A DNA stretch of 18,217 bases, from UHGV virus genome UHGV-0816550; one strand, given 5' to 3'. The notes under the pieces were generated by a model. That model saw nothing but the letters and a program-made list of their open reading frames with translations, was not told the DNA's origin and searched no databases. The stretch comes from a virus. Both the position numbers and the translations under genes were made by a program. Shown here piece by piece: positions 1 through 18,217 of the stretch. Within the stretch, counting starts at the first letter, position 1. Each line of letters begins with the position of its first letter.

Positions 1-438
1 TTAACCCATCCCACTGGAACAACCAGCCTGTTAACTTTGTCTCGTTTCGGGAGTCGTTTCATTTTCTATCCTAGTATTGAAGCAGATACTCCTGTTTATC
101 CTGATGATGGAAGCCCTTTGATTCCAGCAGAAAACTCAGTGATTCTTAGCTATTATGCGGACCCACCGGAATTCCATGAAGATACAGATACCAGTGCTAT
201 CCTTACTATTGCACCAGAGCTTCTTCTGTATTTCACTCTACGTCACGCTTGCTTATTTGTTCAAGATGATAATGGAGTTCAGAAATGGTCTGCATTAGGA
301 AAAGCTATCCTTGATGAAATAGTAGAGCAGCATAAGAAACAAGAGTACTCAGGTTCACCTATCGCAATTCCGAATAACATGACTCGACTTCAGAGCAGCT
401 TGCCTGATATTTATGGTATTCGTACTTCTCGTGTATAA
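1..438 (+). CDS. 5'-truncated hypothetical phage structural protein (baseplate or fibre-adjacent), C-terminal part only
   Basis: Frame 1 is open from base 1 with no stop, so the ORF enters from upstream of the window; TAA at 436-438. The stop lies 9 nt before the tail fibre start, with the fibre's AAGGAG site at 437-442 overlapping it. No family motif recognised. Confidence 0.55.
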   Translation, partial: LTHPTGTTSLLTLSRFGSRFIFYPSIEADTPVYPDDGSPLIPAENSVILSYYADPPEFHEDTDTSAILTIAPELLLYFTLRHACLFVQDDNGVQKWSALGKAILDEIVEQHKKQEYSGSPIAIPNNMTRLQSSLPDIYGIRTSRV

Positions 439-447
439 GGAGATAAT

Positions 448-3400
448 ATGATCGTTTATAATAGCCAAGCACCTGATGCAGTGAATGATGTTGGGCAGTT
501 TGGTGCTAAGGAAGGCTCTATCGGAGCTTACAAGCAAGCAGCAGAATATGCAGCTGACTCCAAATATTGGGCACTGCTAGCGGAGTCTAAGTTTGGTACA
601 ATTGATGACTTGATCACTGAAGTAGAACGTCTGTATCAACAAGGTGTTTTAATGAAGCAAGATATCGAAGATCTTAAACAGGACTTTAAAGATCAAGATG
701 CTCGTTTGATGACACTTATTGCTCAGACTAACGCAGCAGTGTCGGATGCTAATAATGCCGTTGCTTTAATCAATCAGAAACTTATTGAGGTTCAGAAACA
801 GCTTGATGTTCTGTTGGGAATGTCTGTTGACGTAACTACACTTCCTCCGGGAACTCCGGCTACTGGCTCTTTTAATCCGAACACTGGTGTAATCTCTTTA
901 GGTATTCCAGAAGGTGATCCCGGAAAGGATGGTTCTGTTAAAGATTTGGATACAGCACCTACTGGTGTTCCAGAGCTAGGTGATTTAGGTTTCTATGTTG
1001 ACAAAGATGACAATACTGTCCACAAGACTACTCTAGAGAATATTGCTAACTTAATTCCATCTGTTCGTTCTGTGTCTGTTAACGGTGGAACACCTGCTGA
1101 TGGAGAAGTTAATCTGGTCCTAGACAAAACTACTGTAGGTCTTAATAACGTAGTTAACGTAGCCTCTTATAGTATCTCTCAAGTTGACGGTAAAGTGGAT
1201 GGGTATGTTAAAACCTACAGAACCAAAGCTGCTGCGGATGCTGATGTAGTTAACCGAAAGGTTGGCGAAAACATCCTAGTTTGGGAGGATTATAAATACG
1301 TCTTCTACACTGTAGCTGCCGATAAAACACTAACTCTTTCTAAAACAGAAAATAGGATTGTTACGGTAAACTCTCGAGTTCCGGATTCTACTGGTAATAT
1401 TGATATTACGATACCTACCGGTAACCCGTCTTTGTATTTGGGTGAGATGTTAATGTTCCCTTATGACCCAGCCAAACAGGTGTCATATCCGGGTGTTCTT
1501 CCAGCTGATGGTCGTCTGGTGTCTAAAGATAACGCTGCTGATTTAGGCCCATCTCTTGTCAGTGGTCAACTTCCTGTTGTTTCTGAAACTGCGTGGCAAG
1601 CTGGAGCTAAACAGTATTTCTCTTGGGGCAAGTTAGCTGATGGGGTTACTGATGCGGATTCAACAAACTTTATCAATATTCGACTTCCCGATTGGACAGG
1701 TGGTGAGGCAATTAGATCTCCAAGTAAAACAAGTGACACTCAGTATGATGGAAGACCTCTTTCTCAGGTTCCTTATGTTGTTGCTGTTAACGGTAAGATC
1801 CCTAATGAAGCAACAGGTAATGTTACAGTCACAGCATCAGATGTAGGTGCCCTTCCTACTACTGGTGGTAAGATGACAGGCCATCTAAATCTCAGCTCTG
1901 GGATTGTGTTAACAGGTACCGCGAGTTCTGGAACATCCATTAATATCGCAACTGTTGCAACTGATGGTTCCGTTCTTCTCGGTAGTGATACAGTTAAAGC
2001 TAAAGTCCTATCTTCTGATGTCCCTGTTTATGCAAGCGCTTCGGGAGAGAAGAAGTTTTACACTGAGGCTAACAAACCAACTCCTGCTGAAATAGGGGCT
2101 GCTGCTATCACCTCTGCTGGGGTTAACGGGGATATCACTAAGCTTGAAGGTTTGGTTGGCCCTACTCGACTGGGTGGAGATGCTGTAGGTGATCTAGATG
2201 CTGTTACCTTACGTCAGTTAAGAAACCAAGGGGGTGGCGGTGGTGGGGCTAGCTTGAACGGTGTCTCTAATTTCAATATTGGTGATTTCCGTTTAGTAGA
2301 CAGTCGTGCTCTTATTCACTCTAATGACGTAACTTCTGACGGTCAATTATTATCTCGTACGGCATACCCAGATCTGTGGGCTTATGCTCAAGCGTTGTCT
2401 CCTATCACAGATGCTGCTTGGCTGGCTGACCCCCAACAAAGAGGTAAATACTCTTTAGGTGATGGTTCTACTACATTCCGTGTCCCTGACCGAAATGGTG
2501 TCCAAAGCGGCTCTATCACAGGGTTGTTTGGTAGGGGTGACTCTGGTAATTCTTCTAACAGTGGTTCAGTTTCTGATGCTTCTCTGCCAAACATCACAGC
2601 TAGCTTCTCTTCAGACTTAAACGGAAAAGCTTGGTTTCCTTTCACTACAGCTGACGGGTCTATGCTTGTCTCAACATCCGGTAGTGGAACTTTTATGCCA
2701 ACTGCTGGATATGAAACTGGGACCCAAGGAAATATACTTAGGTTCGATGCATCTAGACAATCCTCAGTTTATGGTCGATATAGTAACACCCAGAACGTAA
2801 TACCTAAAAGTTTTACTGGCGTTTGGGTAATCAGGGCTACTGGTGGATTCACTGCTGCTAATACAGAGTGGTCTGTTATTAACTCCGATGCAACCAAACC
2901 TTCTACTGGGTTTACAGTGTCTGGTGGTTTAGTCCGCTCTGAGTATAAAATAGGGACCGACCTAACTTACTCAGCAACCTTGTCTGCTTATGGGCAAATT
3001 GATGGAGCCTCCGGAACATCTGGAGCTAAAATCTTAAACGGGTCTCAGGAGTGGAAATTCAACAATGCTGGAACATTAGTTCTTCCTAATGCGGTATCTC
3101 AGCTTGGTACAGAAAGACCTGATGGAGCTATCAATGTTGATGCATACCTAAGACCTAAAGATTTGGTAGCCAACTCACTGAACTCTGTCGGTGTTGCGGC
3201 TTACGAGCGAAACGGTATGAGGATGATTAACTTCAATCAAACCACTCCTGGATATGTTTCTTACTTCTCTGGGGATTGGTATGATGGCAGTTACACTCTT
3301 GGTGGCGTTCGTGGTACTGGTACAGACCTGATTCATGCTCAGATTGCGGTAAACAACGGTCAAGGTGTAGCAGCTGATTTTAAGTTCATGCCGGACGGAA

Positions 3401-3762
3401 CTGCTCAAGCAGGGAACTGGTCAAGCACTTCAGACGAAAGACTTAAAACTAACATCAAGCGTATTGAGAATCCTATTGAAAAACTTAAGGCTATCAAAGG
3501 TGTTACTTGGGAACGTCTTGATAAACTTCCTAAACCTAATGGTATTGGCTTCCTTGCGCAAGATGTGGAGAAGGTTTTCCCTGACGCTGTTAAGGCTCTC
3601 CAGTATTCAGACACTGAATTGAAAGATGGAACTATTGTGAAAGATGTTAAGTCTGTAGACACCTATGGGGTAGCTGCTGCACTGCATCACGAAGTCCTAT
3701 TAGTTTTGTTAGATAGAATAGAAGCTCTTGAGAAAGAAGTAAATGAATTAAGGGCACGGTAA
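448..3762 (+). CDS. Tail fibre / tailspike protein 1 (1104 aa) with tail-collar module and C-terminal intramolecular chaperone domain
   Basis: ATG 448 preceded by AAGGAG (437-442). Predicted coiled-coil N-terminus; poly-Gly hinge (QGGGGGGAS); collar-like motif AYPDLWAYAQAL...GDGSTTFRVPDRNG at about 2362-2500; C-terminal S-DERLKTNIKRIENPIEKLKAIKGVTWERLD...LHHEV typical of peptidase S74 self-cleaving chaperone domains. Confidence 0.9.
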   Translation: MIVYNSQAPDAVNDVGQFGAKEGSIGAYKQAAEYAADSKYWALLAESKFGTIDDLITEVERLYQQGVLMKQDIEDLKQDFKDQDARLMTLIAQTNAAVSDANNAVALINQKLIEVQKQLDVLLGMSVDVTTLPPGTPATGSFNPNTGVISLGIPEGDPGKDGSVKDLDTAPTGVPELGDLGFYVDKDDNTVHKTTLENIANLIPSVRSVSVNGGTPADGEVNLVLDKTTVGLNNVVNVASYSISQVDGKVDGYVKTYRTKAAADADVVNRKVGENILVWEDYKYVFYTVAADKTLTLSKTENRIVTVNSRVPDSTGNIDITIPTGNPSLYLGEMLMFPYDPAKQVSYPGVLPADGRLVSKDNAADLGPSLVSGQLPVVSETAWQAGAKQYFSWGKLADGVTDADSTNFINIRLPDWTGGEAIRSPSKTSDTQYDGRPLSQVPYVVAVNGKIPNEATGNVTVTASDVGALPTTGGKMTGHLNLSSGIVLTGTASSGTSINIATVATDGSVLLGSDTVKAKVLSSDVPVYASASGEKKFYTEANKPTPAEIGAAAITSAGVNGDITKLEGLVGPTRLGGDAVGDLDAVTLRQLRNQGGGGGGASLNGVSNFNIGDFRLVDSRALIHSNDVTSDGQLLSRTAYPDLWAYAQALSPITDAAWLADPQQRGKYSLGDGSTTFRVPDRNGVQSGSITGLFGRGDSGNSSNSGSVSDASLPNITASFSSDLNGKAWFPFTTADGSMLVSTSGSGTFMPTAGYETGTQGNILRFDASRQSSVYGRYSNTQNVIPKSFTGVWVIRATGGFTAANTEWSVINSDATKPSTGFTVSGGLVRSEYKIGTDLTYSATLSAYGQIDGASGTSGAKILNGSQEWKFNNAGTLVLPNAVSQLGTERPDGAINVDAYLRPKDLVANSLNSVGVAAYERNGMRMINFNQTTPGYVSYFSGDWYDGSYTLGGVRGTGTDLIHAQIAVNNGQGVAADFKFMPDGTAQAGNWSSTSDERLKTNIKRIENPIEKLKAIKGVTWERLDKLPKPNGIGFLAQDVEKVFPDAVKALQYSDTELKDGTIVKDVKSVDTYGVAAALHHEVLLVLLDRIEALEKEVNELRAR
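3430..3759 (+). other. Intramolecular chaperone (peptidase S74-like) domain of fibre 1, with predicted autocleavage near the Ser-Asp at 3430-3435
   Basis: Motif SDERLKTNI...GVTWERL...GIGFLAQDVEKVFPDAV...LHHEVLLVLLDRIEALEKEVNELR matches the conserved endosialidase/tailspike C-terminal chaperone signature ending in a coiled coil. Confidence 0.7.
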
Positions 3763-3772
3763 TATAAATAAT

Positions 3773-3791
3773 GCTCCCTTCGGGGAGCTTT
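3773..3791 (+). terminator. Stem-loop GCTCCC-TTCG-GGGAGC followed by TTT; candidate terminator or RNA processing/stability hairpin
   Basis: Perfect 6-bp GC-rich inverted repeat with a UUCG tetraloop 11 nt after the fibre 1 stop; only a short U-tract; the AAGGAG site of the next gene follows at 3792. Confidence 0.5.
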
Positions 3792-3803
3792 AAGGAGATT
3801 TAA

Positions 3804-5900
3804 ATGTCTAGAGATTTAATGCCCAAATCTGGCATACTTCAACCATATGTTGTTGTTTCCAGAGATGCAGCTGTTGTTGGCGTTTCCACTGTAGATGGTG
3901 TTGCTGGAGCTGTAAATTTAACTGATAAATACTTGCAGAAAACAGAAGCGGCTGATGTATATCAAACTAAAACAGAAGGTGCATCTAAAGATTATGTATT
4001 AGATTCAATTAAACCTATCATGGAAGGTGCTTTGTTCAAAGCAGACCCTTTTGTAGATAATAACATCCCTTTCCGTTCTGCTGGGGCTAATGGTGTAGAG
4101 TCTGTGGATATGATGAAAGTCACCACTGATAACTCAATTAAGATTGGTAGTTATGCTTCCTCAGTTCAAGGTGTAGAAATTCACTCTGCTGGTCGTCTTC
4201 AGGTTGTTGACCAGAATGACTCTGGGGTAGAAACTAAGTACCCTGTTTATTCTAAACGATACCGCCCTGAGATTGAAGATTTACCTTTCGCTGCAATCGG
4301 AACTTATGTTAAAGATTCAAAAGGTCGTACTGTTGGTGTTACCCGTACAGGTATTAACTCTGATATCAAACAGCTTACACAGAAGGTTACTTTCACTCAG
4401 CCAGTAACTGTTGCCGATGCAGTTGGTGACTATGATGCTGTCACACTAAGACAACTCCGTAATAGTAGTGGTGGTTCTGGTGGTCCTACAATGAGCGGTA
4501 TTTCTAACTTTGGTATTGGTGATTTCAGACTAGTAGACAGCCGTGCTTTTATCCAATCAAATGATGTTACCTCAGATGGTCAGCTGTTAAATCGTGCTGA
4601 TTACCCAGAGCTTTGGGCTTACGCACAACTATTGACCCCAATTAGTGATGCAGATTGGCTGGCTGACCCCCAACAAAGAGGTAAATACTCTTTAGGTGAT
4701 GGTTCTACTACTTTCCGCGTTCCTGATAGAAATGGCGTTCAAACCGGTTCTATCTCTGGTCTGTATGCTCGCGGTGACGGTGGTAACAGCTCCAACGACG
4801 GTACTGTTCAGCAGAACGCCGCGCCTGATATTACAGGCTCCGTTGGTGCGAACATATGGAGCGTATATGGAGATCCTACGGGGGCGATGTTTGCGGCTGA
4901 TCCAGCACTTAATATTCCGTTAGGCGCAGGAACCACACCAGCGCTTTCCGTCGGCTTTCGAGCGGGCCTATCAAACGCCGCTTATGGTCGCGACAACACG
5001 ACCGAAGTCCGCACCAACAGCTTCATAGGTGTCTGGGTTATTCGTGCTAATGGTGGCTTTACTGCTGCTAATACTTCTTGGTCTGTTATTAATGGCGACA
5101 GCGTTGCTCCGGGTACTGGAACAAAGATAGTAGGTGGTGAGATTCGTTCTGACTATAATATTGGAGACTCTATGCACATAAGATCCTCTATGCGTGCTGA
5201 TGGTAACTACGGTCAACGTGGAGGTGGTGTATGGAGAATTGAGGACTATCAAGGTAAAAGTGCAGAGATATCTTTCAACCTTGGTGGTGAGTTAGTGGTC
5301 CCAACATACACCAGAGGCGTGGGGTCGGGTTTCATTGCATCTTCTAAATTAGGGTCTGATGGTCAGTGGCCTACAACATCCCCGGCGTTTATTTGTGAGC
5401 TAACAGGCAGAGTGGGTAATCCCGGAACACCGGGTGCTGTTTTCTCCATGTCTATGGCGGAGAACGTGGGTGTTGATAGCTTTGGCATACTTAGATTCTC
5501 AGGAGCAGGGGTGAATGTGGACTGGCTGTTTAACCAGTTTGGTAGTGCCATAGCTCCTGCTAACTGGGTGAGTAATTCGGATATCCGAATTAAAAAGGAT
5601 ATTGCTAAGATAGAAGAACCTCTTGAGAAGATGAAGAAACTACATGGGTACACTTGGCGACGCTTAGACGGGGGCCAGTTTGGTATTGGGTTCATTGCTC
5701 AAGAAGTTCAGGATATCTATCCAGAGTTGGTCTATACAGGCCCAGACAGAACCCTCCCTGATGGAACAGTTGTCAAAGGTGTCCTATCTCCAGATTCTAC
5801 TGGTATTGCGATTGGTCTTCACCACGAAGCTATTCTGGCTTTGATGGAACAAATCGACACCCTTAAAGCAGAGATTGCTGAACTCAAATCTAACAAATGA
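3804..5900 (+). CDS. Tail fibre / tailspike protein 2 (698 aa), paralogue of fibre 1 with collar module and C-terminal intramolecular chaperone domain
   Basis: ATG 3804 with AAGGAG at 3792-3797. Collar-like motif ADYPELWAYAQLL...GDGSTTFRVPDRNG at about 4596-4737, roughly 80% aa-identical to fibre 1 over this module; C-terminal SDIRIKKDIAKIEEPLEKMKKLHGYTWRRLD...LHHEAILALMEQIDTLKAEIAELK. Confidence 0.9.
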   Translation: MSRDLMPKSGILQPYVVVSRDAAVVGVSTVDGVAGAVNLTDKYLQKTEAADVYQTKTEGASKDYVLDSIKPIMEGALFKADPFVDNNIPFRSAGANGVESVDMMKVTTDNSIKIGSYASSVQGVEIHSAGRLQVVDQNDSGVETKYPVYSKRYRPEIEDLPFAAIGTYVKDSKGRTVGVTRTGINSDIKQLTQKVTFTQPVTVADAVGDYDAVTLRQLRNSSGGSGGPTMSGISNFGIGDFRLVDSRAFIQSNDVTSDGQLLNRADYPELWAYAQLLTPISDADWLADPQQRGKYSLGDGSTTFRVPDRNGVQTGSISGLYARGDGGNSSNDGTVQQNAAPDITGSVGANIWSVYGDPTGAMFAADPALNIPLGAGTTPALSVGFRAGLSNAAYGRDNTTEVRTNSFIGVWVIRANGGFTAANTSWSVINGDSVAPGTGTKIVGGEIRSDYNIGDSMHIRSSMRADGNYGQRGGGVWRIEDYQGKSAEISFNLGGELVVPTYTRGVGSGFIASSKLGSDGQWPTTSPAFICELTGRVGNPGTPGAVFSMSMAENVGVDSFGILRFSGAGVNVDWLFNQFGSAIAPANWVSNSDIRIKKDIAKIEEPLEKMKKLHGYTWRRLDGGQFGIGFIAQEVQDIYPELVYTGPDRTLPDGTVVKGVLSPDSTGIAIGLHHEAILALMEQIDTLKAEIAELKSNK
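5577..5897 (+). other. Intramolecular chaperone (peptidase S74-like) domain of fibre 2
   Basis: NSDIRIKKDI...HGYTWRRL...GIGFIAQEVQDIYPELV...GLHHEAIL plus terminal coiled coil; homologous to the fibre 1 C-terminus but divergent (I estimate about 40% identity by eye). Confidence 0.7.
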
Positions 5901-5903
5901 GAT

Positions 5904-5922
5904 AAGCCCCTTCGGGGGCTTT
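5904..5922 (+). terminator. Stem-loop AAGCCCC-TTCG-GGGGCTT; candidate terminator or processing hairpin after fibre 2
   Basis: Perfect 7-bp stem with UUCG tetraloop 4 nt after the TGA stop; same architecture as the hairpin at 3773-3791; weak U-tract. Confidence 0.45.
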
Positions 5923-5992
5923 AGTAGTAAGTACCCTTAGTAAGTAATGAAACTAATATATCCCAAGAGGTTAATATATAGGAGACACTCAA

Positions 5993-6211
5993 ATGAAAAT
6001 GATGAAACAGGCTGCATATGGTTTAATCTGTTTAGTTGCAGGCGTTGTGGTATCAACCGCAGTTCCTGTAAGCGCAGTTCATCCATTAGTAACTGTCCCT
6101 GCTCCAGTAGAGAAGCTTAGCTCTCAATGCAAGCAGAGAACAATTCAAAATAACTTAGTTGTTATTTGCCCCGATGCTGAATCTAACGCTCTGAGAAAGA
6201 TACTACCTTAA
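5993..6211 (+). CDS. Small membrane protein (72 aa), putative holin or lysis accessory protein
   Basis: ATG 5993 with AGGAG at 5980-5984. One N-terminal hydrophobic segment (AAYGLICLVAGVVVSTAV), a proline-rich stretch and a charged C-terminal tail; sits immediately upstream of a lysozyme that has no signal or anchor sequence. Confidence 0.5.
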   Translation: MKMMKQAAYGLICLVAGVVVSTAVPVSAVHPLVTVPAPVEKLSSQCKQRTIQNNLVVICPDAESNALRKILP

Positions 6212-6240
6212 TTTAAAGGGACTACAAAAGGAGGTTAGGA

Positions 6241-6732
6241 ATGGATAACGCCGCATTGCCACCTGTACAACTAAACTTAAGCCCAGCTGGAATGGAATTC
6301 ATCATGAAGCATGAGGGTATGAGAACCAAGGCTTATAAAGATTCCGCAGGTATATGGACTATATGTGTAGGGGCTACGCGCGATATGAATGGTTATCCGG
6401 TTAGACAAGGATTAACGTATTCTATAGAGGATTGTCTAGCTCTGCTAGATAGAGACACACAAGACTCTGTTCGTGCTACTCAAAAGAACATAAAGGTTCC
6501 TTTACTAGTTCATGAGTTTGATGCACTCACTTCTTTCAACTTCAATGTTGGCAGTGGTGCTTTGAGCACATCTAAGTTAAGGAAGGTTATCAATGGAGAA
6601 GTTAAAGGGGATGTATATTCCGAATTTCTTCGTTGGGATAAAATAACGGTCAAGGGAGAGAAGCAGAGAAGTCAGGGTCTTCATAATAGAAGGGTTGCAG
6701 AAGCTGATCTTTACACCGAAGGTAAATATTAA
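6241..6732 (+). CDS. Endolysin, T4-type lysozyme (glycoside hydrolase family 24)
   Basis: ATG 6241 with AAAGGAGG at 6226-6233. HEG-MRTKAYKD-SAGIWTICVG reproduces the T4 lysozyme catalytic spacing Glu-(9)-Asp-(6)-Thr (T4 E11/D20/T26; here E25/D34/T40). No N-terminal hydrophobic segment, so it would be holin-dependent. Confidence 0.9.
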   Translation: MDNAALPPVQLNLSPAGMEFIMKHEGMRTKAYKDSAGIWTICVGATRDMNGYPVRQGLTYSIEDCLALLDRDTQDSVRATQKNIKVPLLVHEFDALTSFNFNVGSGALSTSKLRKVINGEVKGDVYSEFLRWDKITVKGEKQRSQGLHNRRVAEADLYTEGKY

Positions 6733-6744
6733 TGGAGGTGCCTT

Positions 6745-7548
6745 TTGGCTATCGAAACTAATGCGGTAGTTATTACCGACTTAAACCCGCTCTATCCTAG
6801 AGACAGGGATTACATCTACGAAGGGGCGGCTCAAATCCGCCTCATTAAACAAACGTTACAGAACACATTCCCCAATGTTACAGAACCGGTTGATATAGAT
6901 TCTGATACCTTTAAGATTATGTCAGAGAAGCTTAAGTTTACTGGTGATGCAATGGATGTTGGTGGTCTTATGATCAAGAATGTTACTCCGGGAACTGGTG
7001 ACAAGGATGTTGTTACTAAAGGCCAGATGGAAGCGTTCATGAAGAACTGGATGGAGAATAAGCTCTATCGAATTGGTTCTTACTATATCACTGAAGAAGA
7101 CATTAACCCAGGTGATTCAATCTCCTTAGGGTTTGGTTCTTGGGCTAAAGTGACTGGTGTCATTATGGGTACTGGTGTAGTAAACCCTGATGGAACTGTT
7201 CCTAATGCTCAGAGAGTTGAGTTCCAAGCAGGTGGTACTGGTGGTCGTGTCTTCAATACTATTCGAACTGAGAACGTACCTTTGATGACAGTTAATGGCT
7301 CCAGCTTCTCTCTATCCAGTAATACTCACAGTCACAATATGGTGTTTGGTCGTGGGGATGCTAGTGGTCATAACAGCTCACCAAACTGGTATAGTCCGGG
7401 TGGTGGTTATAGTCAGAGAACTGATAATGACACACATACTCATACAATCTCTGGTAGTGTAAGTCTTGGTCGTGATGATATCTCTCGTCAACCTATTAAC
7501 ACTTTGCCACCATTCAGAGCAGCTCACATTTGGAGACGTATTAGCTAA
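6745..7548 (+). CDS. Short tail fibre-like / receptor-binding tail protein (267 aa) with two HxH motifs
   Basis: TTG start at 6745 with GGAGG at 6734-6738; no in-frame ATG nearby. C-terminal region NTHSHNMVFGRGDASGHNSS...DTHTHTISG has HxH motifs and an FGRGD-x-G-x-NSS motif also present in both fibres, recalling the T4 gp12 type collar and metal-binding tip region. Confidence 0.7.
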   Translation: MAIETNAVVITDLNPLYPRDRDYIYEGAAQIRLIKQTLQNTFPNVTEPVDIDSDTFKIMSEKLKFTGDAMDVGGLMIKNVTPGTGDKDVVTKGQMEAFMKNWMENKLYRIGSYYITEEDINPGDSISLGFGSWAKVTGVIMGTGVVNPDGTVPNAQRVEFQAGGTGGRVFNTIRTENVPLMTVNGSSFSLSSNTHSHNMVFGRGDASGHNSSPNWYSPGGGYSQRTDNDTHTHTISGSVSLGRDDISRQPINTLPPFRAAHIWRRIS

Positions 7549-7557
7549 GGAGGAATT

Positions 7558-10500
7558 ATGGCGCTGTATCCAATAAAGTCACTAGGTGCTGTAGGCGTTA
7601 TCGCTGATCAGGCTCCGACAGACTTAGCTCCTAATGCTTTCACTAATGCTATAAATGCTCGATTTGTTGAGCAGAGAGTATTTAAGACGGGGGGCAATGC
7701 CCCTCTTTCTTATGTAGATGAAGATAAGGATTTAACCCCTCTGTCTTTCGTTTCTATGCCTTTCGATTATTATAGCGCAGGTAATAGCTTTCTTGTTGTA
7801 GGTACTAATAAGAAGTTATATAAACTGACAGATGAAAGCTTGACTGATATTAGCCGTAAGGTTGCTACAGTCACTAAGAAGGCTTCTGCCTCAATTAAGA
7901 TTTATCCAGTTGTTTCTCAGATCGTTCCTAAAGAATCAACTATCTCAATGAACTTCAATCAGACCAAGAATCTAGAGGTTTCTCTTCTCCCTGCTGATGC
8001 TAACAATACCGATCTTATTTGGGAGGTTAGTAACTCATCCTATGGAAGTATTACGGTAGACCCTAGTGACTCTAAACTTGCTACTCTAACATCTTTTGAG
8101 AAAGAGGGTAATCTTGTAGTAACTATCTCTACTGCCAATGAATCCGTAGTGGCTCAGATTGCTGTTAATATTATCGATGGCGATTCAGGCATCTTCTTGA
8201 GTCAAGACACTGTTACAATTCGTAAAGGAGGGACTACTACTCTCACGGCTGTTACTGGCAAGACTCCTGTAACTTGGTCCAGCAATAACGCTTCTATTGT
8301 ATCTGTAACCCCTAATGCCAACTCTTTAACTGCTGTCATTACAGCGAATGGAGAAGGTAATGTAACAATCACTGCTGATAACGGGACTAAGACTGCTTCT
8401 TGTGAGATTGTTTCTATCCCTCAGATTGATAGTATCTCTTTAAGCCAGTCAGATGTTACTGTGAGTAGAGGTTCTCAGTATATTTTAACTGCCACCCTTT
8501 CTCCTGCTAACGCCCCTAATCAAAACATTACTTGGACCTCTTCTAACCCAAATATTGCAACAGTATCAGGGACTAGCACACAAGGGACGATCAACGCTCT
8601 GCTTGCTGGTTTTACTGAGATTACAGCTACCACTGAAGAAGGTAACAGAGTTGCTGTCTGTACTGTACGTGTGGATTTAGCTGGAAGGACAATGAGAACA
8701 AGTGCTATGGCATTTGCCGCTCCTGTGTCAGAGTCAGTAGAAACTCAAGAGGAAGAAGTAGTAACTCCTCCTGAAAGTGAAGAGACGGTTTATTTTGCTG
8801 AGCCTACATCCGGTATTGATACGTCAGGGATGTATGAAGGTAACAACTTCTACGACTACTCTAACGTGAATGACATTGAAGGTTTTGCAAGAGCTTCTTT
8901 ACTGGCAACCCCTTTGTCGTCTGTAACCTTAGATATTGTCAGCGCCTCCCTTGATGTTGGTGAAGAGATTGTCATTACAGCCACAGCTTCTCCAGAAGGT
9001 GAGTACTCTTATCAGTGGTCTGTTGATAAAACTGGTTATGTTTCTACAACTTCAGTTACTGGTAAATCTATCAAACTGGTTGCTCTTCGTAAAGGAGAGA
9101 TTAACGTAACATGTACTGTCAGCCAGATGACTCAGAAAGATTATGATGCTTTTGATGACTACCCTTGGTATCACGCTGTTATCTCTAACTGTGCAGTTGC
9201 TACAACTCACTATGAAACTCCTCAGGTAAAAGAATTCGAATCAGAATACTTTGTAGACCTCCCGGGGTGGGGTGAGCAAACAGTTGTTGATAATGATGGA
9301 AACCCTTCAGTCAAGAAGTTTAACTGGAAATGTGAGAGAGTGAGATCTTTTAACAACCGTCTTTTTGCTCTGAATATGAGAGAGGCTAATGCTTCTGGTG
9401 TTACCACTAACTATCCGCTTCGTCTTCGTTGGTCTAACTTTGCCAATGAGAACAAGGCTCCTACACTGTGGGATGACTTTGCCTATGATCGAGTTGTGTC
9501 TTCGGACTTAGCTTCTAACATCGTAGGGCAGACTCAGGCTCTAGAGAATGGGTATGCTGGTTACATCGACTTAGCAGATTCTAATGGTAGCTTGATTGAT
9601 ATCCTACCTCTTAAAGACTACTTGTTTGTTTATACAGAGTTTGAAACGTATATTGGTTCTCCGACTAATAACACATACCAACCTCTGATGTTCAAGAAGC
9701 TCTTTAACGACTCTGGTATCCTTGCTCCCGAGTGTGTGGTTGAAGTAGAAGGCAGTCACTTCGTAGTTACTCAGAACGATGTAATCTTACACAATGGCGC
9801 AACCAAGAAGTCAATTGCATCTAACCGTGTCAAGAACATGCTGATTAACGAGGTGTGTCTGGTTAATCCTCTAGCAACTCGAGTACACTTGCATCAGGAT
9901 AAGAAAGAAGTTTGGGTTCTGTATGTAGGTCCGGGAGAACCAAAAGAAAGCTTCGCTTGCACCAAAGCTGCTGTATGGAATTATGAGTTTGATACCTGGT
10001 CTTTCCGTACTATCCCATATGCTCAGTGTATTGGTCTGGTTGATCCTCCTGTTTTAGAAAGAGGTCCAATCTGGTCTGACTTCCAAGAAATCACTTGGGA
10101 TGATCCGTCTATTAAAGAACTCGTTTGGAGAAAGGATGCAACAAACTTTAGACAGAGGGTTACGATAGTAGGTTCGTTCTTGAGGGGATTCTATCAGGTG
10201 GATGTAGGTGCTCTTGATTATTTCTATGACAGGCTAAACGATGTTGTTATAGAGAAGCCTCTGGAAATGAGGTTGGAGAGGACTGGTATAGATTTTGATA
10301 ATGTGACGAATGAGTGGAATCAGAAGCATATTAATAGATTCCGACCTCAGACAACTGGCTCAGGTACTTACATATTTGAAGCTGGTGGCAGTCAATTCTC
10401 AAATGAATATGGACACCCACATACATCTAAGACTTATACAATCGGTGTTGACAGGCATGTCTCGGTGAGACTGAACCATCCATACCTTTTCTATAATGTT

Positions 10501-10575
10501 ATAGATAATGATGTTAACAGTAATGCTGCTATCAATGGTTTGACGATAGAGTTTGCTGTTGGCGGGCGGAGATAA
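7558..10575 (+). CDS. Large virion structural protein (1005 aa) with four internal Ig-like (Big_2-type) domains
   Basis: ATG 7558 with AAGGAGG at 7547-7553. Four roughly 80-aa repeats between about 7903 and 9120 with the Big_2 pattern (for example TISMNFNQTKNLEVSLLPADANNTDLIWEVSNSSYGSITVD; VTIRKGGTTTLTAVTGKTPVTWSSNNASIVSV; VTVSRGSQYILTATLSPANAPNQNITWTSSNPNIATV). Flanking N- and C-terminal regions not recognised. Confidence 0.8.
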   Translation: MALYPIKSLGAVGVIADQAPTDLAPNAFTNAINARFVEQRVFKTGGNAPLSYVDEDKDLTPLSFVSMPFDYYSAGNSFLVVGTNKKLYKLTDESLTDISRKVATVTKKASASIKIYPVVSQIVPKESTISMNFNQTKNLEVSLLPADANNTDLIWEVSNSSYGSITVDPSDSKLATLTSFEKEGNLVVTISTANESVVAQIAVNIIDGDSGIFLSQDTVTIRKGGTTTLTAVTGKTPVTWSSNNASIVSVTPNANSLTAVITANGEGNVTITADNGTKTASCEIVSIPQIDSISLSQSDVTVSRGSQYILTATLSPANAPNQNITWTSSNPNIATVSGTSTQGTINALLAGFTEITATTEEGNRVAVCTVRVDLAGRTMRTSAMAFAAPVSESVETQEEEVVTPPESEETVYFAEPTSGIDTSGMYEGNNFYDYSNVNDIEGFARASLLATPLSSVTLDIVSASLDVGEEIVITATASPEGEYSYQWSVDKTGYVSTTSVTGKSIKLVALRKGEINVTCTVSQMTQKDYDAFDDYPWYHAVISNCAVATTHYETPQVKEFESEYFVDLPGWGEQTVVDNDGNPSVKKFNWKCERVRSFNNRLFALNMREANASGVTTNYPLRLRWSNFANENKAPTLWDDFAYDRVVSSDLASNIVGQTQALENGYAGYIDLADSNGSLIDILPLKDYLFVYTEFETYIGSPTNNTYQPLMFKKLFNDSGILAPECVVEVEGSHFVVTQNDVILHNGATKKSIASNRVKNMLINEVCLVNPLATRVHLHQDKKEVWVLYVGPGEPKESFACTKAAVWNYEFDTWSFRTIPYAQCIGLVDPPVLERGPIWSDFQEITWDDPSIKELVWRKDATNFRQRVTIVGSFLRGFYQVDVGALDYFYDRLNDVVIEKPLEMRLERTGIDFDNVTNEWNQKHINRFRPQTTGSGTYIFEAGGSQFSNEYGHPHTSKTYTIGVDRHVSVRLNHPYLFYNVIDNDVNSNAAINGLTIEFAVGGRR

Positions 10576-10579
10576 CAAC

Positions 10580-10608
10580 AAGGGGCTTCGTGCCCCTTTT
10601 ATTGTTTT
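10580..10608 (+). terminator. Rho-independent terminator-like hairpin AAGGGGC-TTCGT-GCCCCTT followed by a U-rich tract
   Basis: 7-bp GC-rich stem at 10580-10586 / 10592-10598, then TTATTGTTTT; lies 5 nt after the TAA stop at 10573-10575 and before the next gene's GGAGGA site. Confidence 0.6.
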
Positions 10609-10618
10609 GGAGGAACTT

Positions 10619-11587
10619 ATGGGTGCAGGTGGTTTTCGTAAGAATACTGGTCGCAACAATACCACACTCCCGTACAACGTTGGGTTTCTCAATAATGTAC
10701 AGGACACAGAAACATATAACGTAGCCGTATATGATGAGCTACAAAAAGTCAGTACAGCTACTAACCAAATGTTCCAAGCTATAGATGAAATTCACGAAGA
10801 GATTGATGTTCGTATTAAAGCTCTTAATGCAATGAATCTACAATTTGATGAGCTTGAGAATAGAATTACTACAGAGATAGAAACAGCTATTGCAGATATC
10901 CAAACCCAGATGGGGAACCTGTCCACTGAGGATATTTGGGATAATTCTGTTCAACCTCCTGTGAAGCTGGAAAGCACTGTATCTGGTTTTAAGACTAGCA
11001 TCGAAGGTAACACAACTAAGATTCAGACAGTAGAAGGTATTGTTAACGATCAAGGTCAAGAGATTGCTCTTGTTCAGACAGAACTGCAAAATATCAACGG
11101 AAGCCTTTCTCAGTATATGAAACTCTCTGAGTATGAAGCTACGTGGGGTGTTAACTCTACAGTCAACGGAAGATATGCTGGGGTCAAGTTAACTAACAAC
11201 GGAACAAACAGTCAATTCCAAGTAACAGCTAACAAATTTATTGTTGGTGATGGCAGCTCTGGGAATACTCCCTTCGTATTTGAGGGTGGGCGAGCTAGGA
11301 TGGAATTCGCTGATATAAAGAATGTCAATATCACAACAGCTCAGATTGCTAACGCTAGAATCCAATGGGCACAGATTGATAACGTATCCATCTCCAACGC
11401 CCAGATTCAGAACTTGTCAGCGGATAAGATTACTGCTGGTTCTATGTGGGGTTCTAACTGGAGACTTACTGTTGGTGGTGACTTTGTTATGGGTGGTACA
11501 GGTGGAGCGCAGTTGTGGATGAATGGTAACAGAATAGACTTCTATGATGGAAGTGGTGCTCTTAGAATCAGGATAGGGAGTTGGTAA
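10619..11587 (+). CDS. Tail protein (322 aa) with coiled-coil region and J-like beta-repeat C-terminal domain
   Basis: ATG 10619 with GGAGGA at 10609-10614; the ORF-track start at 10553 is a TTG inside the previous gene and terminator. Heptad-like central region; C-terminal repeats NITTAQIANARIQWAQIDNVSISNAQIQNLSADKITAGS resemble tail tip / host-specificity protein repeats. Confidence 0.75.
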   Translation: MGAGGFRKNTGRNNTTLPYNVGFLNNVQDTETYNVAVYDELQKVSTATNQMFQAIDEIHEEIDVRIKALNAMNLQFDELENRITTEIETAIADIQTQMGNLSTEDIWDNSVQPPVKLESTVSGFKTSIEGNTTKIQTVEGIVNDQGQEIALVQTELQNINGSLSQYMKLSEYEATWGVNSTVNGRYAGVKLTNNGTNSQFQVTANKFIVGDGSSGNTPFVFEGGRARMEFADIKNVNITTAQIANARIQWAQIDNVSISNAQIQNLSADKITAGSMWGSNWRLTVGGDFVMGGTGGAQLWMNGNRIDFYDGSGALRIRIGSW

Positions 11588-11588
11588 T

Positions 11589-12620
11589 ATGGCATATGGA
11601 ATATGGACACAACCAGTAGGGCCGGGGCCAGCAACCCCCGCTCCCTTATTTATTGATAGCGGAAGTACTTTCCCTCAGTTCAAGAATAGTATAAGAGGGA
11701 GTTTTAACTTTAATGGAGCTGGGAGATCTTTCCCTATTAGTGGATGGGATGGCAGTGGTCAGATAGTTATTGTTCCCACCGGTTCTTTATGCTGGCAATG
11801 GGAAGTCCCTCCTAACCTAGTTCCTGATGTTTATTGTGTGAATAATATCTACGTAGAAAACAGTTCCTCTTTTAGAGTTACTCTGAATCAGAACCCCGGC
11901 AGTAACCCCTTATTTGACTGTGGGTTCAACGTATATCAAATATGGCCTAGAGCGGATAGGAATTACGGAATTACCTTTTCTAATACAGCAGACTACTTCT
12001 CGATATCTGATAGTGGGGTCGTCGGTCAATGTATTTGGGCTTGGCAGGGGACCATAAACAATGCCCTTCAGATACCAAATATCGGTGGGTTCAATATGAC
12101 CAATGCTGTTGTGTTTGCTAATTGGTCTGATGGAGGGATAGGACTATCTTATACTTCTGATGACAGGGTTATTCGTGTTTATCAGAACAGACCTTACATA
12201 AACGGCAACACTAATGAGGGTGGTTCTGTGTTTGCTAGAATTGCAGTATTCTGCAATGGAGCAGGAGTTCCGGAACATAACGGAGGTTTGAATATTTACT
12301 CTCCGGGTACCACGCAATGTGTCTTCTCTACTAATAGAACACCTTTCACTGTGGATACTTTTATAGGCTCAGGAGGTGGTAACACTGGAATGTCATACCC
12401 TATGATACCTCTTACCTCTGGAATAGGTGCGATAAAAGGCCAAGGCAGTGGATGGAGGTATCAGCAAATGAGATCTCACACAATGAGTGGTTCTAGCATA
12501 GGAACTGGTTATGGAAGATATCTATTTCAATGGGATCAAAATTACGACCTAGGAGCTGATACTGTAGTTAATTTATCAGTTCCTGTAATAAATGCAGCTA
12601 AGGTTTTTGCTGGACTATAA
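11589..12620 (+). CDS. Hypothetical virion protein (343 aa), Gly/Asn/Trp-rich
   Basis: ATG 11589 lies 1 nt after the TAA of the previous gene (TAATATG), suggesting translational coupling. Long ORF with composition like neighbouring structural genes; no family motif recognised. Confidence 0.7.
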   Translation: MAYGIWTQPVGPGPATPAPLFIDSGSTFPQFKNSIRGSFNFNGAGRSFPISGWDGSGQIVIVPTGSLCWQWEVPPNLVPDVYCVNNIYVENSSSFRVTLNQNPGSNPLFDCGFNVYQIWPRADRNYGITFSNTADYFSISDSGVVGQCIWAWQGTINNALQIPNIGGFNMTNAVVFANWSDGGIGLSYTSDDRVIRVYQNRPYINGNTNEGGSVFARIAVFCNGAGVPEHNGGLNIYSPGTTQCVFSTNRTPFTVDTFIGSGGGNTGMSYPMIPLTSGIGAIKGQGSGWRYQQMRSHTMSGSSIGTGYGRYLFQWDQNYDLGADTVVNLSVPVINAAKVFAGL

Positions 12621-12632
12621 CAAGGAGATATT

Positions 12633-13415: not shown

Positions 13416-13434
13416 TAATCTTTAAGGAGGACTT

Positions 13435-14487: not shown

Positions 14488-14499
14488 AGGAGATTTGAT

Positions 14500-15469: not shown

Positions 15470-15482
15470 TTAGGAGACAAAT

Positions 15483-17967: not shown

Positions 17968-18035
17968 AACGTCTCCTTTTATAAATAAAAATGTCCTACC
18001 CCCTATATACATTATAGAAGGCAGGACTTAGGTCT

Positions 18036-18217
18036 TATTGAGTGAACCAGCTCGTATCTTCAACAGCTGATAGAGCACCATTAAGCTTAGGATTGGTTGC
18101 TGCACCACCAACCGCTTCTTCTGCTTGTTCAGAGAAAACACCTAGAGGGTCATAGAAACCACCAGAAGGGATTGCACGGTTAACCAATGCAGTAGCCCTC
18201 TTCTTGTCCATACCAGA
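18036..18217 (-). CDS. Small minus-strand ORF, possibly the C-terminus of a gene that starts beyond the window end
   Basis: Frame open from the window edge to TAA (complement of 18036-18038); internal ATG at 18209-18211 would give a 57-aa product MDKKRATALVNRAIPSGGFYDPLGVF...; codon usage like neighbours. Start not determinable. Confidence 0.35.

What the first reader, a model, noticed from the sequence alone, without database searches (positions are those of the whole stretch)
448..5900. Two tandem tail fibre/spike genes that are mosaic paralogues
Fibre 1 (1104 aa) and fibre 2 (698 aa) differ in their N-terminal regions but share a central collar module at about 80% aa identity, a second homologous block (FTGVWVIRATGGFTAANTEWSVIN vs FIGVWVIRANGGFTAANTSWSVIN) and divergent C-terminal chaperone domains. 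This module-shuffled architecture implies two receptor-binding proteins and possibly dual host or receptor specificity.
Basis: partly seen in the sequence, partly recalled or inferred. Interest (0 to 1): 0.6.

Follow-up and report, generated by a model that had tools for sequence, protein, structure and literature searches.

The report
Two-armed kuravirus long tail fibre
These two adjacent genes encode the two subunits of the long tail fibre of a phiEco32/SU10-like E. coli phage, and here both subunits carry their own receptor-binding arm, a known arrangement (as in phage DT57C) that probably lets the phage recognise more kinds of bacterial surface sugar.

Summary
ORFs 448-3762 (F1, 1104 aa) and 3804-5900 (F2, 698 aa) are mosaic paralogues (BLASTP E 3e-129). 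A collar block is ~78-80% identical, a second block 62-77%, and the Peptidase_S74 chaperones ~45%; a hypervariable insert and a variable tip are 10-30% identical.

The window is the structural module of a Kuravirus. F1 is the long-tail-fibre proximal subunit (aa 1-468, 82% to SU10 gp12). F2 is the distal subunit (72% to SU10 gp13). They are parts of one fibre, not two independent fibres or spikes.

F1 lacks the usual SU10-type C-terminus. It carries an arm colinear with LtfA of the T5-like phages DT57C and DT571/2, and F2 matches LtfB. The best reading is therefore a branched fibre with two receptor-binding arms.

This F1 type is common: 34 of the 120 best F1 homologue clusters have it, including LAMP, PAS59, EK010 and pEC-N1203-2Af.1.

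The conserved blocks act as crossover sites. F2 nt ~900-1263 is 89-98% identical to F1 genes of relatives but only 24-57% to F2 orthologues. A 57-nt exact repeat links the window's own F1 and F2.

Verdict: an ordinary, well-supported new member of a known kind.

The parts
1..438 (+). 3' part of the adaptor (gatekeeper) gene, which is cut by the window start. The adaptor dodecamer is the docking site of the F1 N-termini.
   Evidence: PF24175 SU10_adaptor, E 3.4e-9. Synteny with SU10 gp11 and with pEC-N1203-2Af.1.
448..3762 (+). F1: long-tail-fibre proximal subunit, 1104 aa, with its own LtfA-type receptor-binding arm
   Evidence: aa 1-499 match SU10 gp12 (PDB 7z47_D), E 6e-251. aa 236-884 match DT57C LtfA (PDB 8hqz_d), E 1e-123. 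A profile hit to LtfA covers positions 249-1093, E 7e-200.
448..1152 (+). F1 aa 1-235: adaptor-binding N-terminus and coiled coil
   Evidence: 96.5% identical to SU10 gp12 over aa 1-200. Residues 1-90 of gp12 are resolved bound to the adaptor in SU10 (PMC9509320).
1153..1851 (+). F1 aa 236-468: conserved mid-region and proposed dock for the F2 N-terminus. This is the last segment shared by all F1 types.
   Evidence: 68-99% identical in every Gordonclarkvirinae F1 examined, whatever its C-terminus. Homologous to LtfA 223-471, the proposed LtfB contact (PMC4728585).
1852..2178 (+). F1 aa 469-577: linker or shaft, where F1 departs from SU10 gp12
   Evidence: Identity to SU10 gp12 ends at aa 468. 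94-97% identical to most of the closest arm-type F1s (69-74% in two).
2179..2577 (+). F1 block A (aa 578-710): conserved collar scaffold of the Gp12-like RBD1
   Evidence: 78% aa and 75% nt identity to F2 block A. Pfam Collar 20.9-21.3 bits, below the 24-bit cut-off.
2418..2474 (+). 57-nt exact repeat with F2 (4655-4711), inside a 102-nt tract (2416-2517 / 4653-4754) at 90% identity. Likely the footprint of an F1-F2 exchange.
   Evidence: The chance of such a run at 72% background identity is about 2.5e-6.
2518..2850 (+). F1 recombinant patch, containing the hypervariable RBD1 insert (aa 711-776, nt 2578-2775), here called allele X
   Evidence: 28-57% nt identity to the otherwise 95-100% identical F1 genes of L013 and N1203, but 82-97% to L015 F1. 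Insert aa identity to close relatives is 17-27% against a 92-100% backbone.
2776..2952 (+). F1 block B (aa 777-835): second conserved scaffold block of RBD1
2953..3432 (+). F1 aa 836-995: variable distal tip (the T5-like RBD2 by homology), ending at the predicted cleavage serine S995
   Evidence: 65-99% identical to close F1s and ~52% to some F2 tips. SDERLK motif with Ser995.
3433..3762 (+). F1 intramolecular chaperone (aa 996-1104) plus stop codon
   Evidence: PF13884 at 54.4 bits. Aligns to the S16 fibre IMC (PDB 6f45_A), including the SD.R.K motif. dN/dS 0-0.06 against close relatives.
3773..3788 (+). GC-rich hairpin with a UUCG tetraloop in the F1-F2 spacer, followed by AAGGAG and the F2 ATG
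   Evidence: It was flagged only on the minus strand as terminator-like. There is no T-run on the plus strand.
3804..5900 (+). F2: long-tail-fibre distal subunit, 698 aa (the 'T-shaped' fibre family)
   Evidence: aa 1-451 are 72% identical to SU10 gp13. 55-59% full-length identity to EP335 gp13, Bas89 and EcoN5 distal fibres. aa 1-500 are 43% identical to DT571/2 LtfB 1-510.
3804..4415 (+). F2 aa 1-204: conserved N-terminus (proposed plug into F1) and shaft
   Evidence: aa 1-100 are 72-99% identical in all relatives. The first ~45 aa are shared with LtfB (PMC4728585).
4416..4814 (+). F2 block A (aa 205-337)
4703..5066 (+). F2 recombinant patch (gene nt ~900-1263), containing the RBD1 insert aa 338-396 (allele Y), whose closest relatives sit in F1 genes
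   Evidence: 89-98% nt identity to the F1 genes of L013 and L014, against 24-57% to orthologous F2 genes and to the window's own F1. aa identity is 83-90% to F1 inserts of P0004-6 and 75-78% to the best F2 inserts.
4992..5165 (+). F2 block B (aa 397-454)
5166..5579 (+). F2 aa 455-592: variable distal tip, ending at the predicted cleavage serine S592
   Evidence: With the IMC, the best GenBank match is T5-like Salmonella phages Kenya-K42/K36 at 67%; all other matches are 37% or lower. SDIRIK motif.
5580..5900 (+). F2 intramolecular chaperone (aa 593-698) plus stop codon
   Evidence: PF13884 at 53.8 bits. PDB 6f45_A hit, E 3.7e-6.
5904..5921 (+). Second UUCG-tetraloop hairpin, directly after F2
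6745..7548 (+). Context: short tail fibre (SU10 gp16 homologue), a conserved further receptor-binding protein of the same virion
   Evidence: PF21939 Gp10_C. phrog_6465. Synteny.

Best explanation
The two genes encode the proximal (F1) and distal (F2) subunits of the six long tail fibres of a Kuravirus (phiEco32/SU10-like podophage of E. coli). The F1 trimer anchors to the adaptor ring through aa 1-90. Its conserved mid-region (aa 236-468) most likely receives the conserved N-terminus of the F2 trimer. In this phage F1 does not end in the usual SU10-type C-terminal domain. It continues into its own receptor-binding arm of the DT57C LtfA type. The fibre is therefore branched, with two arms. Each arm has a Gp12-like collar domain (RBD1: conserved blocks A and B around a hypervariable insert), a variable distal tip (RBD2), and a Peptidase_S74 intramolecular chaperone. 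The chaperone is predicted to fold the trimer and then cut itself off, after Ser995 in F1 and Ser592 in F2. The two arms carry unrelated insert and tip alleles, so they probably bind different surface glycans (O-antigens) and widen or diversify host recognition. The conserved blocks shared by the two genes also serve as crossover sites through which RBD1 inserts move between phages and between the F1 and F2 positions. Shown here: gene identities, module boundaries, colinearity with LtfA/LtfB, purifying selection, and recombinant patches. Inferred: docking site, branching, autoproteolysis, glycan targets.
For: Phage identity and synteny. F1 aa 1-468 is 82% identical to SU10 gp12 and then diverges; F2 aa 1-451 is 72% identical to gp13; PDB hits 7z47_D and 8hqz_d. 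W_F1 246-1104 is colinear with DT571/2 LtfA 230-1039 (E 3e-172), and W_F2 1-500 with LtfB 1-510 (E 7e-105). LtfA and LtfB are themselves mosaic paralogues. The F2 N-terminus and F1 aa 236-468 are conserved in all relatives, while F1 C-termini fall into at least 3 unrelated types. This argues that F2 docks on the conserved part of F1, as proposed for LtfA/LtfB and phiEco32 gp14/gp15 (PMC4728585). Both IMCs are above the Pfam cut-off and have the S-D-x-R-x-K motif. dN/dS is 0-0.25 for all alignable F1 arm modules and 0.03-0.5 for F2 modules. Cassette behaviour. Published function of homologues: EP335 gp13 binds O157 and O26 cells and self-cleaves at Ser621 (PMC8217332); LtfA and LtfB recognise different O-antigens (PMC4728585); the distal fibre is described as T-shaped with dual RBDs (PMC11990801).
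Against: No structural evidence was obtained here. The AF2 monomer of the arm was poor (pLDDT 48.5) and Foldseek gave no significant match. Pfam Collar hits in the window's proteins are below the gathering score. The SU10 paper describes the fibre as proximal plus distal segments with one elbow, not explicitly as branched (PMC9509320). Branching in phiEco32 rests on a personal communication cited in PMC4728585. GFP-tagged EP335 gp12, which by its ~927-aa size and 91% identity to EcoN5 F1 appears to be an SU10-type F1, bound no tested strain (PMC8217332), so receptor binding by an F1 protein has never been shown in a kuravirus. The glycan targets are unknown.
Confidence: 0.75

Rival explanations
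1. Linear fibre. F2 attaches end-to-end to the distal end of F1, and the F1 collar/tip region is only a structural joint (the 'elbow'), not a receptor-binding arm.
For: The SU10 paper describes a 700 Å (70 nm) fibre with one elbow, made of proximal and distal trimers (PMC9509320). GFP-gp12 of EP335 bound no cells (PMC8217332).
Against: The F1 C-terminus is of at least 3 unrelated types, while the F2 N-terminus is 72-99% conserved. This is hard to reconcile with C-terminal docking. The F1 arm ends in a self-cleaving chaperone typical of fibre tips and is colinear with LtfA, whose C-terminal region determines host specificity (PMC4728585). The F1 insert is hypervariable and is exchanged like an RBD cassette.
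Confidence: 0.1
2. Two independent fibres or spikes, each attached separately to the tail.
For: There are two complete ORFs, each with its own RBS and each followed by a hairpin. GenBank annotates the PAS59 homologues as RBP1 and RBP2 'tailspike'.
Against: F2 lacks any homologue of the adaptor-binding N-terminus. In SU10 the six adaptor sites are occupied by gp12, and the nozzle sites by the short fibre gp16 (PMC9509320). LtfB depends on LtfA for function (PMC4728585). No depolymerase or beta-helix domain was found.
Confidence: 0.05
3. One of the two arms is a decaying, non-functional duplicate left over from recombination.
For: In relatives the distal subunit can lose its chaperone: the N1203 and Bas93 F2 proteins are 625 aa with no Peptidase_S74. 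PMC11990801 notes the truncation in Bas93.
Against: Both window ORFs are intact with complete IMC motifs. dN/dS is 0-0.25 in F1 arm modules and 0.04-0.38 in F2 modules against close relatives. The arm-type F1 is maintained in 34 of 120 homologue clusters.
Confidence: 0.07

Closest known systems
LtfA/LtfB branched L-shaped tail fibres of T5-like phages DT57C and DT571/2 (Golomidova et al. 2016, PMC4728585; PDB 8hqz, PMC10713586)
   Same: F1 aa 246-1104 is colinear with LtfA 230-1039: dock region, linker, collar RBD, tip and IMC. The F2 N-terminus and RBD1 match LtfB. The two proteins are mosaic paralogues of each other in both systems. Both end in Peptidase_S74. Recombination between the two genes is documented there, in the form of deletion fusions.
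   Different: The first ~235 aa of F1 are the kuravirus adaptor-binding anchor, not the T5 pb1/LtfC-binding anchor. The virion is a podovirus with six fibres rather than a siphovirus with three. Insert and tip alleles differ (25-32% identity in the insert).
SU10 / phiEco32 long tail fibre: gp12 proximal plus gp13 distal (Siborova et al. 2022, PMC9509320; PDB 7z47)
   Same: Same genus-level backbone, gene order and adaptor anchor. F1 1-468 is 82% and F2 1-451 is 72% identical.
   Different: SU10 gp12 (786 aa) ends in a PF25670 domain with no collar RBD or chaperone. The window's F1 replaces this with a ~635-aa segment (aa 469-1104: a ~110-aa linker plus an LtfA-type arm).
'T-shaped' dual-RBD tail fibres of Gordonclarkvirinae, Wifcevirus and some Tequintavirus (BASEL collection paper, PMC11990801); EP335 gp13 (PMC8217332)
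   Same: F2 is an orthologue, 55-59% identical full-length to EP335 gp13 and Bas89. The F1 arm is 50-64% identical to such fibres from Wifcevirus phages (FEC19 and others) and EP335. The architecture is RBD1, RBD2, IMC, with RBDs frequently exchanged horizontally.
   Different: That work describes the T-shaped module on the distal subunit only. Here, and in LAMP, PAS59, EK010 and pEC-N1203-2Af.1, the proximal subunit carries a second copy of the module.
Escherichia phage pEC-N1203-2Af.1 (OQ540978), the closest GenBank genome
   Same: F1 is 91% identical (1103 aa), with the same arm, tip and IMC. The rest of the module is ~91% identical at nt level.
   Different: Its F1 RBD1 insert is a different allele (27% identity). 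Its F2 is 625 aa, lacks the chaperone, and is only 66% identical over aa 1-463.

Membership tests
Kuravirus long-tail-fibre proximal subunit (SU10 gp12 / phiEco32 gp14) | N-terminal adaptor-binding region and coiled coil homologous to gp12 residues 1-90 and beyond | tested here: met
   PDB 7z47_D, E 6e-251 over aa 1-499. 96.5% identity over aa 1-200.
Kuravirus long-tail-fibre proximal subunit (SU10 gp12 / phiEco32 gp14) | Gene lies between the adaptor gene and the distal-subunit gene | tested here: met
   PF24175 adaptor fragment at 1-438 and F2 downstream. Synteny with SU10 and N1203.
Kuravirus long-tail-fibre proximal subunit (SU10 gp12 / phiEco32 gp14) | C-terminal PF25670 (Phage_tail_C_2) domain, as in SU10 and phiEco32 | tested here: not met
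   No PF25670 hit in F1, whereas SU10, phiEco32, KBNP1711 and Bas93 F1 have it. It is a variable feature: 72 of 120 clusters have it.
Kuravirus long-tail-fibre distal subunit (SU10 gp13; 'T-shaped' fibre) | Conserved N-terminal ~100 aa | tested here: met
   F2 aa 1-100 is 72-99% identical to all relatives, 77% to SU10 gp13.
Kuravirus long-tail-fibre distal subunit (SU10 gp13; 'T-shaped' fibre) | Gp12-like collar RBD1 | tested here: inconclusive
   Pfam Collar scores 17.6-21.3 bits, below the 24-bit cut-off, in both proteins. The homologous N1203 F2 passes at 34.4 bits. F2 is 55% identical full-length to EP335 gp13, whose central segment was assigned to the T4 gp12 tip by HHpred (PMC8217332).
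Kuravirus long-tail-fibre distal subunit (SU10 gp13; 'T-shaped' fibre) | T5 pb1-like RBD2 fold and overall T shape of the trimer | tested here: inconclusive
   The AF2 monomer had pLDDT 48.5. Foldseek against the PDB gave no match at E<=1e-3.
Peptidase_S74 intramolecular chaperone (IMC) of fibres and spikes | C-terminal domain scoring above the Pfam gathering score | tested here: met
   F1 54.4 bits and F2 53.8 bits against a cut-off of 22. Profile hits to the MYRF ICA domain (7dc3), 8jov and 6f45.
Peptidase_S74 intramolecular chaperone (IMC) of fibres and spikes | Conserved cleavage serine, with Lys five residues downstream (S-D/E-x-R-x-K) | tested here: met
   F1 S995-DERLK and F2 S592-DIRIK, aligned to SSDRRIK of the S16 fibre IMC. 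The role of these residues comes from the literature (EP335 gp13 cleaved at Ser621, PMC8217332).
Peptidase_S74 intramolecular chaperone (IMC) of fibres and spikes | Autoproteolytic release after trimer folding | not testable with these tools
   Needs SDS-PAGE or mass spectrometry of the expressed protein or of virions.
LtfA/LtfB-type branched lateral fibre (DT57C, DT571/2) | LtfA-like subunit colinear from the dock region to the IMC | tested here: met
   8hqz_d, E 1e-123. Profile E 7e-200 over positions 249-1093. DT571/2 LtfA, E 3e-172.
LtfA/LtfB-type branched lateral fibre (DT57C, DT571/2) | LtfB-like subunit with the conserved N-terminal ~45 aa, encoded immediately downstream | tested here: met
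   F2 1-500 against LtfB 1-510: 43% identity, E 7e-105. N-termini MSRDLMPKSG... and MSRNLMPKSG....
LtfA/LtfB-type branched lateral fibre (DT57C, DT571/2) | T5 pb1-type N-terminal anchor that inserts into the LtfC ring | tested here: not met
   The F1 alignment with LtfA starts only at aa 236-246. The F1 N-terminus is the SU10-type anchor. The window works like the LtfA/LtfB system but is not a T5-type fibre.
LtfA/LtfB-type branched lateral fibre (DT57C, DT571/2) | Physical attachment of subunit B through subunit A, and distinct O-antigen specificity of the two arms | not testable with these tools
   Inferred from conservation patterns only.
Enzymatic tailspike (depolymerase) | Beta-helix, pectate-lyase, hydrolase or esterase catalytic domain | tested here: not met
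   No such Pfam family in either protein, even at E<=1 on sub-fragments. PHROG hits are all tail-fibre families.

The most novel reading that the evidence does not exclude
The two fibre genes work as a two-slot cassette system. The conserved blocks A and B, present in both paralogues, are crossover sites through which RBD1 specificity inserts are repeatedly moved between the proximal and distal subunit, as well as between phages. One pool of inserts therefore serves both arms, and new pairs of specificities arise by ectopic recombination. The window phage would be a recent double recombinant. Its F2 insert was copied from an F1 gene, possibly its own, as suggested by the 57-nt exact repeat. 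Its F1 insert was then replaced by another allele.
Probability: 0.6. Interest if true: 0.45.

Novelty: new member of a known kind. Interest (0 to 1): 0.3.

Why it matters
Kuraviruses are frequently isolated coliphages with broad host ranges and are candidates for therapy and biocontrol. Which proteins set their host range is still only partly known. This locus shows that in a sizeable minority of the group the proximal fibre subunit also carries a full receptor-binding arm. Host-range prediction or engineering that looks only at the distal subunit would miss half of the determinants.

The mapped module boundaries and natural crossover points (blocks A and B) give ready-made junctions for swapping specificity cassettes. 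The evidence that the same insert works in either subunit suggests the two arms are functionally interchangeable scaffolds.

It does not reveal a new kind of system.

Tried and rejected
(1) Structure. An AlphaFold2 monomer of the F1 arm (aa 560-1104, 26-sequence alignment) gave mean pLDDT 48.5, with only the collar core above 70. Foldseek against the PDB gave no match at E<=1e-3. These fibres are intertwined trimers, so I did not spend the second job.

(2) A 110-aa query (F2 aa 320-429) to the 5.8-billion-protein search returned nothing, with only 7 candidates, although 90%-identical inserts exist. This is a limit of the word index with short queries, not a biological result.

(3) Source of the window. 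The exact proteins are on one 28,121-nt NCBI contig. No encoding contig was on record. Exact-pattern scans of genome contigs and viral contigs found nothing.

(4) IMG/VR held only 4 related loci, so the survey used GenBank phages and the protein database instead.

(5) I tested whether the F1 dock region (aa 300-470) is an internal copy of the collar block. The Smith-Waterman score was not above shuffles (z 3.3 and 1.6, below the shuffle maxima). DT571/2 LtfA has a sub-threshold Collar hit there, and a LtfA 347-398 / F2 257-308 match has E 1e-8. I left this as a weak lead.

(6) Sharing of RBD2 tips between F1 and F2 pools. None was seen at 60% identity or above among kuravirus proteins. The one 'mixed' cluster involves an 899-aa protein of another phage type. 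The motif-based extraction captured only 27 of 120 F2 proteins, so the counts are lower bounds.

(7) Whole-block gene conversion as the reason for the 80% block. Rejected as a general explanation: block A is 70-80% identical between almost any F1 and F2 of any phage and only 75% at DNA level. Only a 102-nt sub-tract shows recent exchange.

(8) Promoter and terminator scans found no more sites than in shuffled sequence.

Full report
**What the window is.** The 18.2-kb window is the virion-structural and lysis module of a Kuravirus (Gordonclarkvirinae; phiEco32/SU10-like prolate podophages of E. coli). Megablast finds 103 phage records. The best is Escherichia phage pEC-N1203-2Af.1, at 91.4% identity over 82% of the window. 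The gene order matches SU10:
- adaptor (cut by the window start)
- F1 and F2
- holin and endolysin
- short tail fibre, nozzle and tail needle
- ejection proteins

Relatives align poorly only inside the two fibre genes.

**Checking the observation.** ORFs 448-3762 (F1, 1104 aa) and 3804-5900 (F2, 698 aa) are as described. BLASTP aligns F1 497-1103 with F2 100-696 at 41% identity, E 3e-129. The similarity is mosaic:

| Module | F1 aa | F2 aa | F1-F2 identity |
|---|---|---|---|
| Block A | 578-710 | 205-337 | 78% |
| Insert | 711-776 | 338-396 | ~21% |
| Block B (holds both quoted motifs) | 777-835 | 397-454 | 62% overall, 70-77% in its core |
| Distal tip | 836-989 | 455-588 | 10-37% |
| Peptidase_S74 domain | 990-1104 | 589-698 | ~45% |

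Both chaperone domains score far above the Pfam threshold. At DNA level the conserved blocks are 75-77% identical. The similarity is not low-complexity sequence.

**What the two proteins are.**
- F1 aa 1-468 is 82% identical to SU10 gp12 and then diverges. It matches PDB 7z47_D at E 6e-251.
- F2 aa 1-451 is 72% identical to SU10 gp13.
- In SU10, cryo-EM showed that gp12 and gp13 are the proximal and distal trimers of one long tail fibre, anchored to the adaptor by gp12 residues 1-90 (PMC9509320). F1 and F2 are therefore subunits of one fibre, not separate fibres or spikes.
- No enzymatic domain is present.

**How F1 differs from SU10.** SU10-type F1 proteins end in a PF25670 domain. The window's F1 instead carries ~635 aa (aa 469-1104, a linker plus a receptor-binding arm) that resemble the distal subunit. 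They are colinear, from aa ~236 to the C-terminus, with LtfA of the T5-like phages DT57C and DT571/2. The supporting hits are PDB 8hqz_d at E 1e-123, an alignment profile at E 7e-200, and DT571/2 LtfA at E 3e-172. F2 aa 1-500 matches LtfB aa 1-510 (E 7e-105), including the N-terminal ~45 aa. LtfA and LtfB are also mosaic paralogues of each other, 55% identical over 428 aa.

**Mechanism.** Golomidova et al. (PMC4728585) showed genetically that:
- LtfA anchors the fibre;
- LtfB depends on LtfA;
- the two recognise different O-antigens.

They proposed that LtfA 223-471, which is homologous to phiEco32 gp14 239-508, contacts the LtfB N-terminus to give a branched fibre.

My survey supports the same docking logic here. 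F1 aa 236-468 and F2 aa 1-100 are conserved in every relative, at 68-99% and 72-99%. The F1 C-terminus, in contrast, comes in at least three unrelated forms. A conserved plug is unlikely to fit three unrelated sockets, so F2 most likely docks on the conserved mid-region and the F1 arm forms a second branch.

Each arm belongs to the family described as 'T-shaped', with a Gp12-like RBD1, a T5-like RBD2 and an intramolecular chaperone (IMC) (PMC11990801). F2 is 55-59% identical to EP335 gp13 and Bas89. The F1 arm is 50-64% identical to such fibres. EP335 gp13 binds O157 and O26 cells and self-cleaves at a conserved serine (PMC8217332).

Both window proteins have the S-D-x-R-x-K motif, with Ser995 in F1 and Ser592 in F2. 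All arm modules that can be aligned are under purifying selection (dN/dS 0-0.25 for F1). Branching, cleavage and glycan targets are inferred, not shown. My attempt at structural confirmation failed.

**How common the arrangement is.** Among the 120 best F1 homologue clusters in the 5.8-billion-protein collection:
- 72 have the SU10-type C-terminus;
- 34 have the collar-plus-block-B arm, all with Peptidase_S74;
- about 13 have other forms;
- one has the phage Paul type.

GenBank examples of the arm type are pEC-N1203-2Af.1, LAMP gp14, PAS59 (annotated RBP1) and EK010. Distances between the F1 and F2 start codons in about 40 genomes give discrete F1 sizes from ~758 to ~1150 aa. The window is one more member of an established, if little discussed, class.

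**Cassette exchange, the most informative result.**
- Close relatives of F1 share a 92-100% identical backbone but are only 17-27% identical in the insert. Others share the insert but differ in the tip and chaperone.
- W_F1 is 95-100% identical at DNA level to L013 and N1203 F1, except for nt 2518-2850. There identity falls to 28-57%, and L015 F1 is closest at 82-97%.
- W_F2 matches F2 orthologues at 83-96% on both sides of gene nt ~900-1263. Inside that patch it is 24-57% identical to them and to its own F1, but 89-98% identical to the F1 genes of relatives L013 and L014.
- At protein level the F2 insert is 83-90% identical to F1 inserts of P0004-6 and 75-78% to the best F2 inserts. The F1 insert allele also occurs in F2-length proteins, at 67-68%.
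- In a partial survey, five insert families at 70% identity or above contain both F1 and F2 members, with cross-pairs up to 98.6% identical.
- Both crossovers of each patch lie in blocks A and B.
- Within block A, a 57-nt exact repeat (2418-2474 / 4655-4711) sits in a 102-nt tract of 90% identity. The background there is ~72%, so the chance of such a run is about 2.5e-6. The tract ends where the F1 patch begins.

A simple scenario is that an F1 insert was copied into F2 within one genome, and the F1 insert was later replaced from another phage. The order and direction of these events are inferred.

Homologous recombination between ltfA and ltfB, giving deletion fusions, was already observed experimentally in DT57C-like phages (PMC4728585). 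Horizontal exchange of these RBDs between phage groups is also described (PMC11990801). This result therefore extends known behaviour rather than revealing a new kind.

**Origins of the alleles.** Outside its own lineage, the F1 arm is closest to fibres of Wifcevirus myophages isolated on O157:H7 (FEC19, EC150, Ro157lw; 60-64%) and to EP335 gp13 (53%). The F2 tip plus chaperone is 67% identical to T5-like Salmonella phages Kenya-K42/K36 and 37% or less to everything else in GenBank. These similarities are only hints about receptors.

**Verdict.** The correction is that the two proteins build one, probably branched, long tail fibre. The arrangement is already known from DT57C/DT571/2 and is frequent among kuraviruses. 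Interest is modest. The useful additions are the exact module map and the evidence that the conserved blocks mediate exchange of specificity inserts between the two subunits.

Noticed in passing
window 16267-18217 (junction at 16267-16275): The last ~1.95 kb of the window matches kuravirus genomes on the opposite strand from the rest. For example, in MN03 window 1-16275 corresponds to record 16052-31668 (+) and window 16267-18217 to record 34294-32344 (-). This implies a ~2.6-kb inversion with 9 nt of microhomology (TTGCTTAAC) at the junction. It truncates the gp23 homologue to 263 aa (ORF 15483-16274; 551 aa in SU10) and splits the large gp24 homologue (minus-strand ORF 16264-18012). It is either a misassembly or chimera in the source contig, or a defective genome.
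   Followed up: partly
window 3773-3788 and 5904-5921: Each fibre gene is followed by a GC-rich hairpin with a UUCG tetraloop (GCTCCC-TTCG-GGGAGC and AAGCCCC-TTCG-GGGGCTT). Neither has a clear T-run on the + strand. They may be mRNA-stabilising or attenuating elements rather than full terminators.
   Followed up: no
L001 5300-7455 (pEC-N1203-2Af.1) and L009 5102-7537 (AidaStucki Bas93): In these relatives the distal subunit is only 625 aa and lacks the Peptidase_S74 chaperone. It is followed by two or three small ORFs before the holin. The distal arm can therefore lose its tip and chaperone in natural isolates.
   Followed up: partly
F1 homologues P0065, P0077-P0081, P0087, P0088 (for example IMEP8, 903 aa); Paul F1, L010 7001-10453: There are further F1 C-terminal types. 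Proteins of ~850-903 aa have Peptidase_S74 but no collar block. Phage Paul has a 1150-aa F1 with a C-terminus matching no Pfam family. The proximal subunit is much more variable than the published SU10 model suggests.
   Followed up: partly
window 5100-5897 (F2 aa 433-698): The tip and chaperone of F2 have only one close GenBank relative, the T5-like Salmonella phages Kenya-K42 and Kenya-K36 (67% aa). All other matches are 37% or lower. This points to exchange between podophages of E. coli and siphophages of Salmonella.
   Followed up: no
window 2125-3759 (F1 arm): Outside its own lineage the F1 arm is most similar to tail fibres of Wifcevirus myophages isolated on E. coli O157:H7 (60-64%), and to EP335 gp13 (53%), which binds O157 and O26. 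This is a hint, not evidence, that this arm targets a related O-antigen.
   Followed up: no
window ~1420-1720 (F1 aa ~325-425): The conserved 'dock' region contains a degenerate collar-like motif (ADGRL...FINIRLPDWTG). Its similarity to block A is not significant in the window. However, DT571/2 LtfA has a sub-threshold Pfam Collar hit at the equivalent place, and LtfA 347-398 matches F2 257-308 at E 1e-8. F1 may thus hold two collar domains.
   Followed up: partly
window 10553-11587: The tail-needle ORF as listed starts at a TTG that overlaps the end of the nozzle gene. The PHROG match begins at residue 23, so the real start is probably a downstream codon.
   Followed up: no
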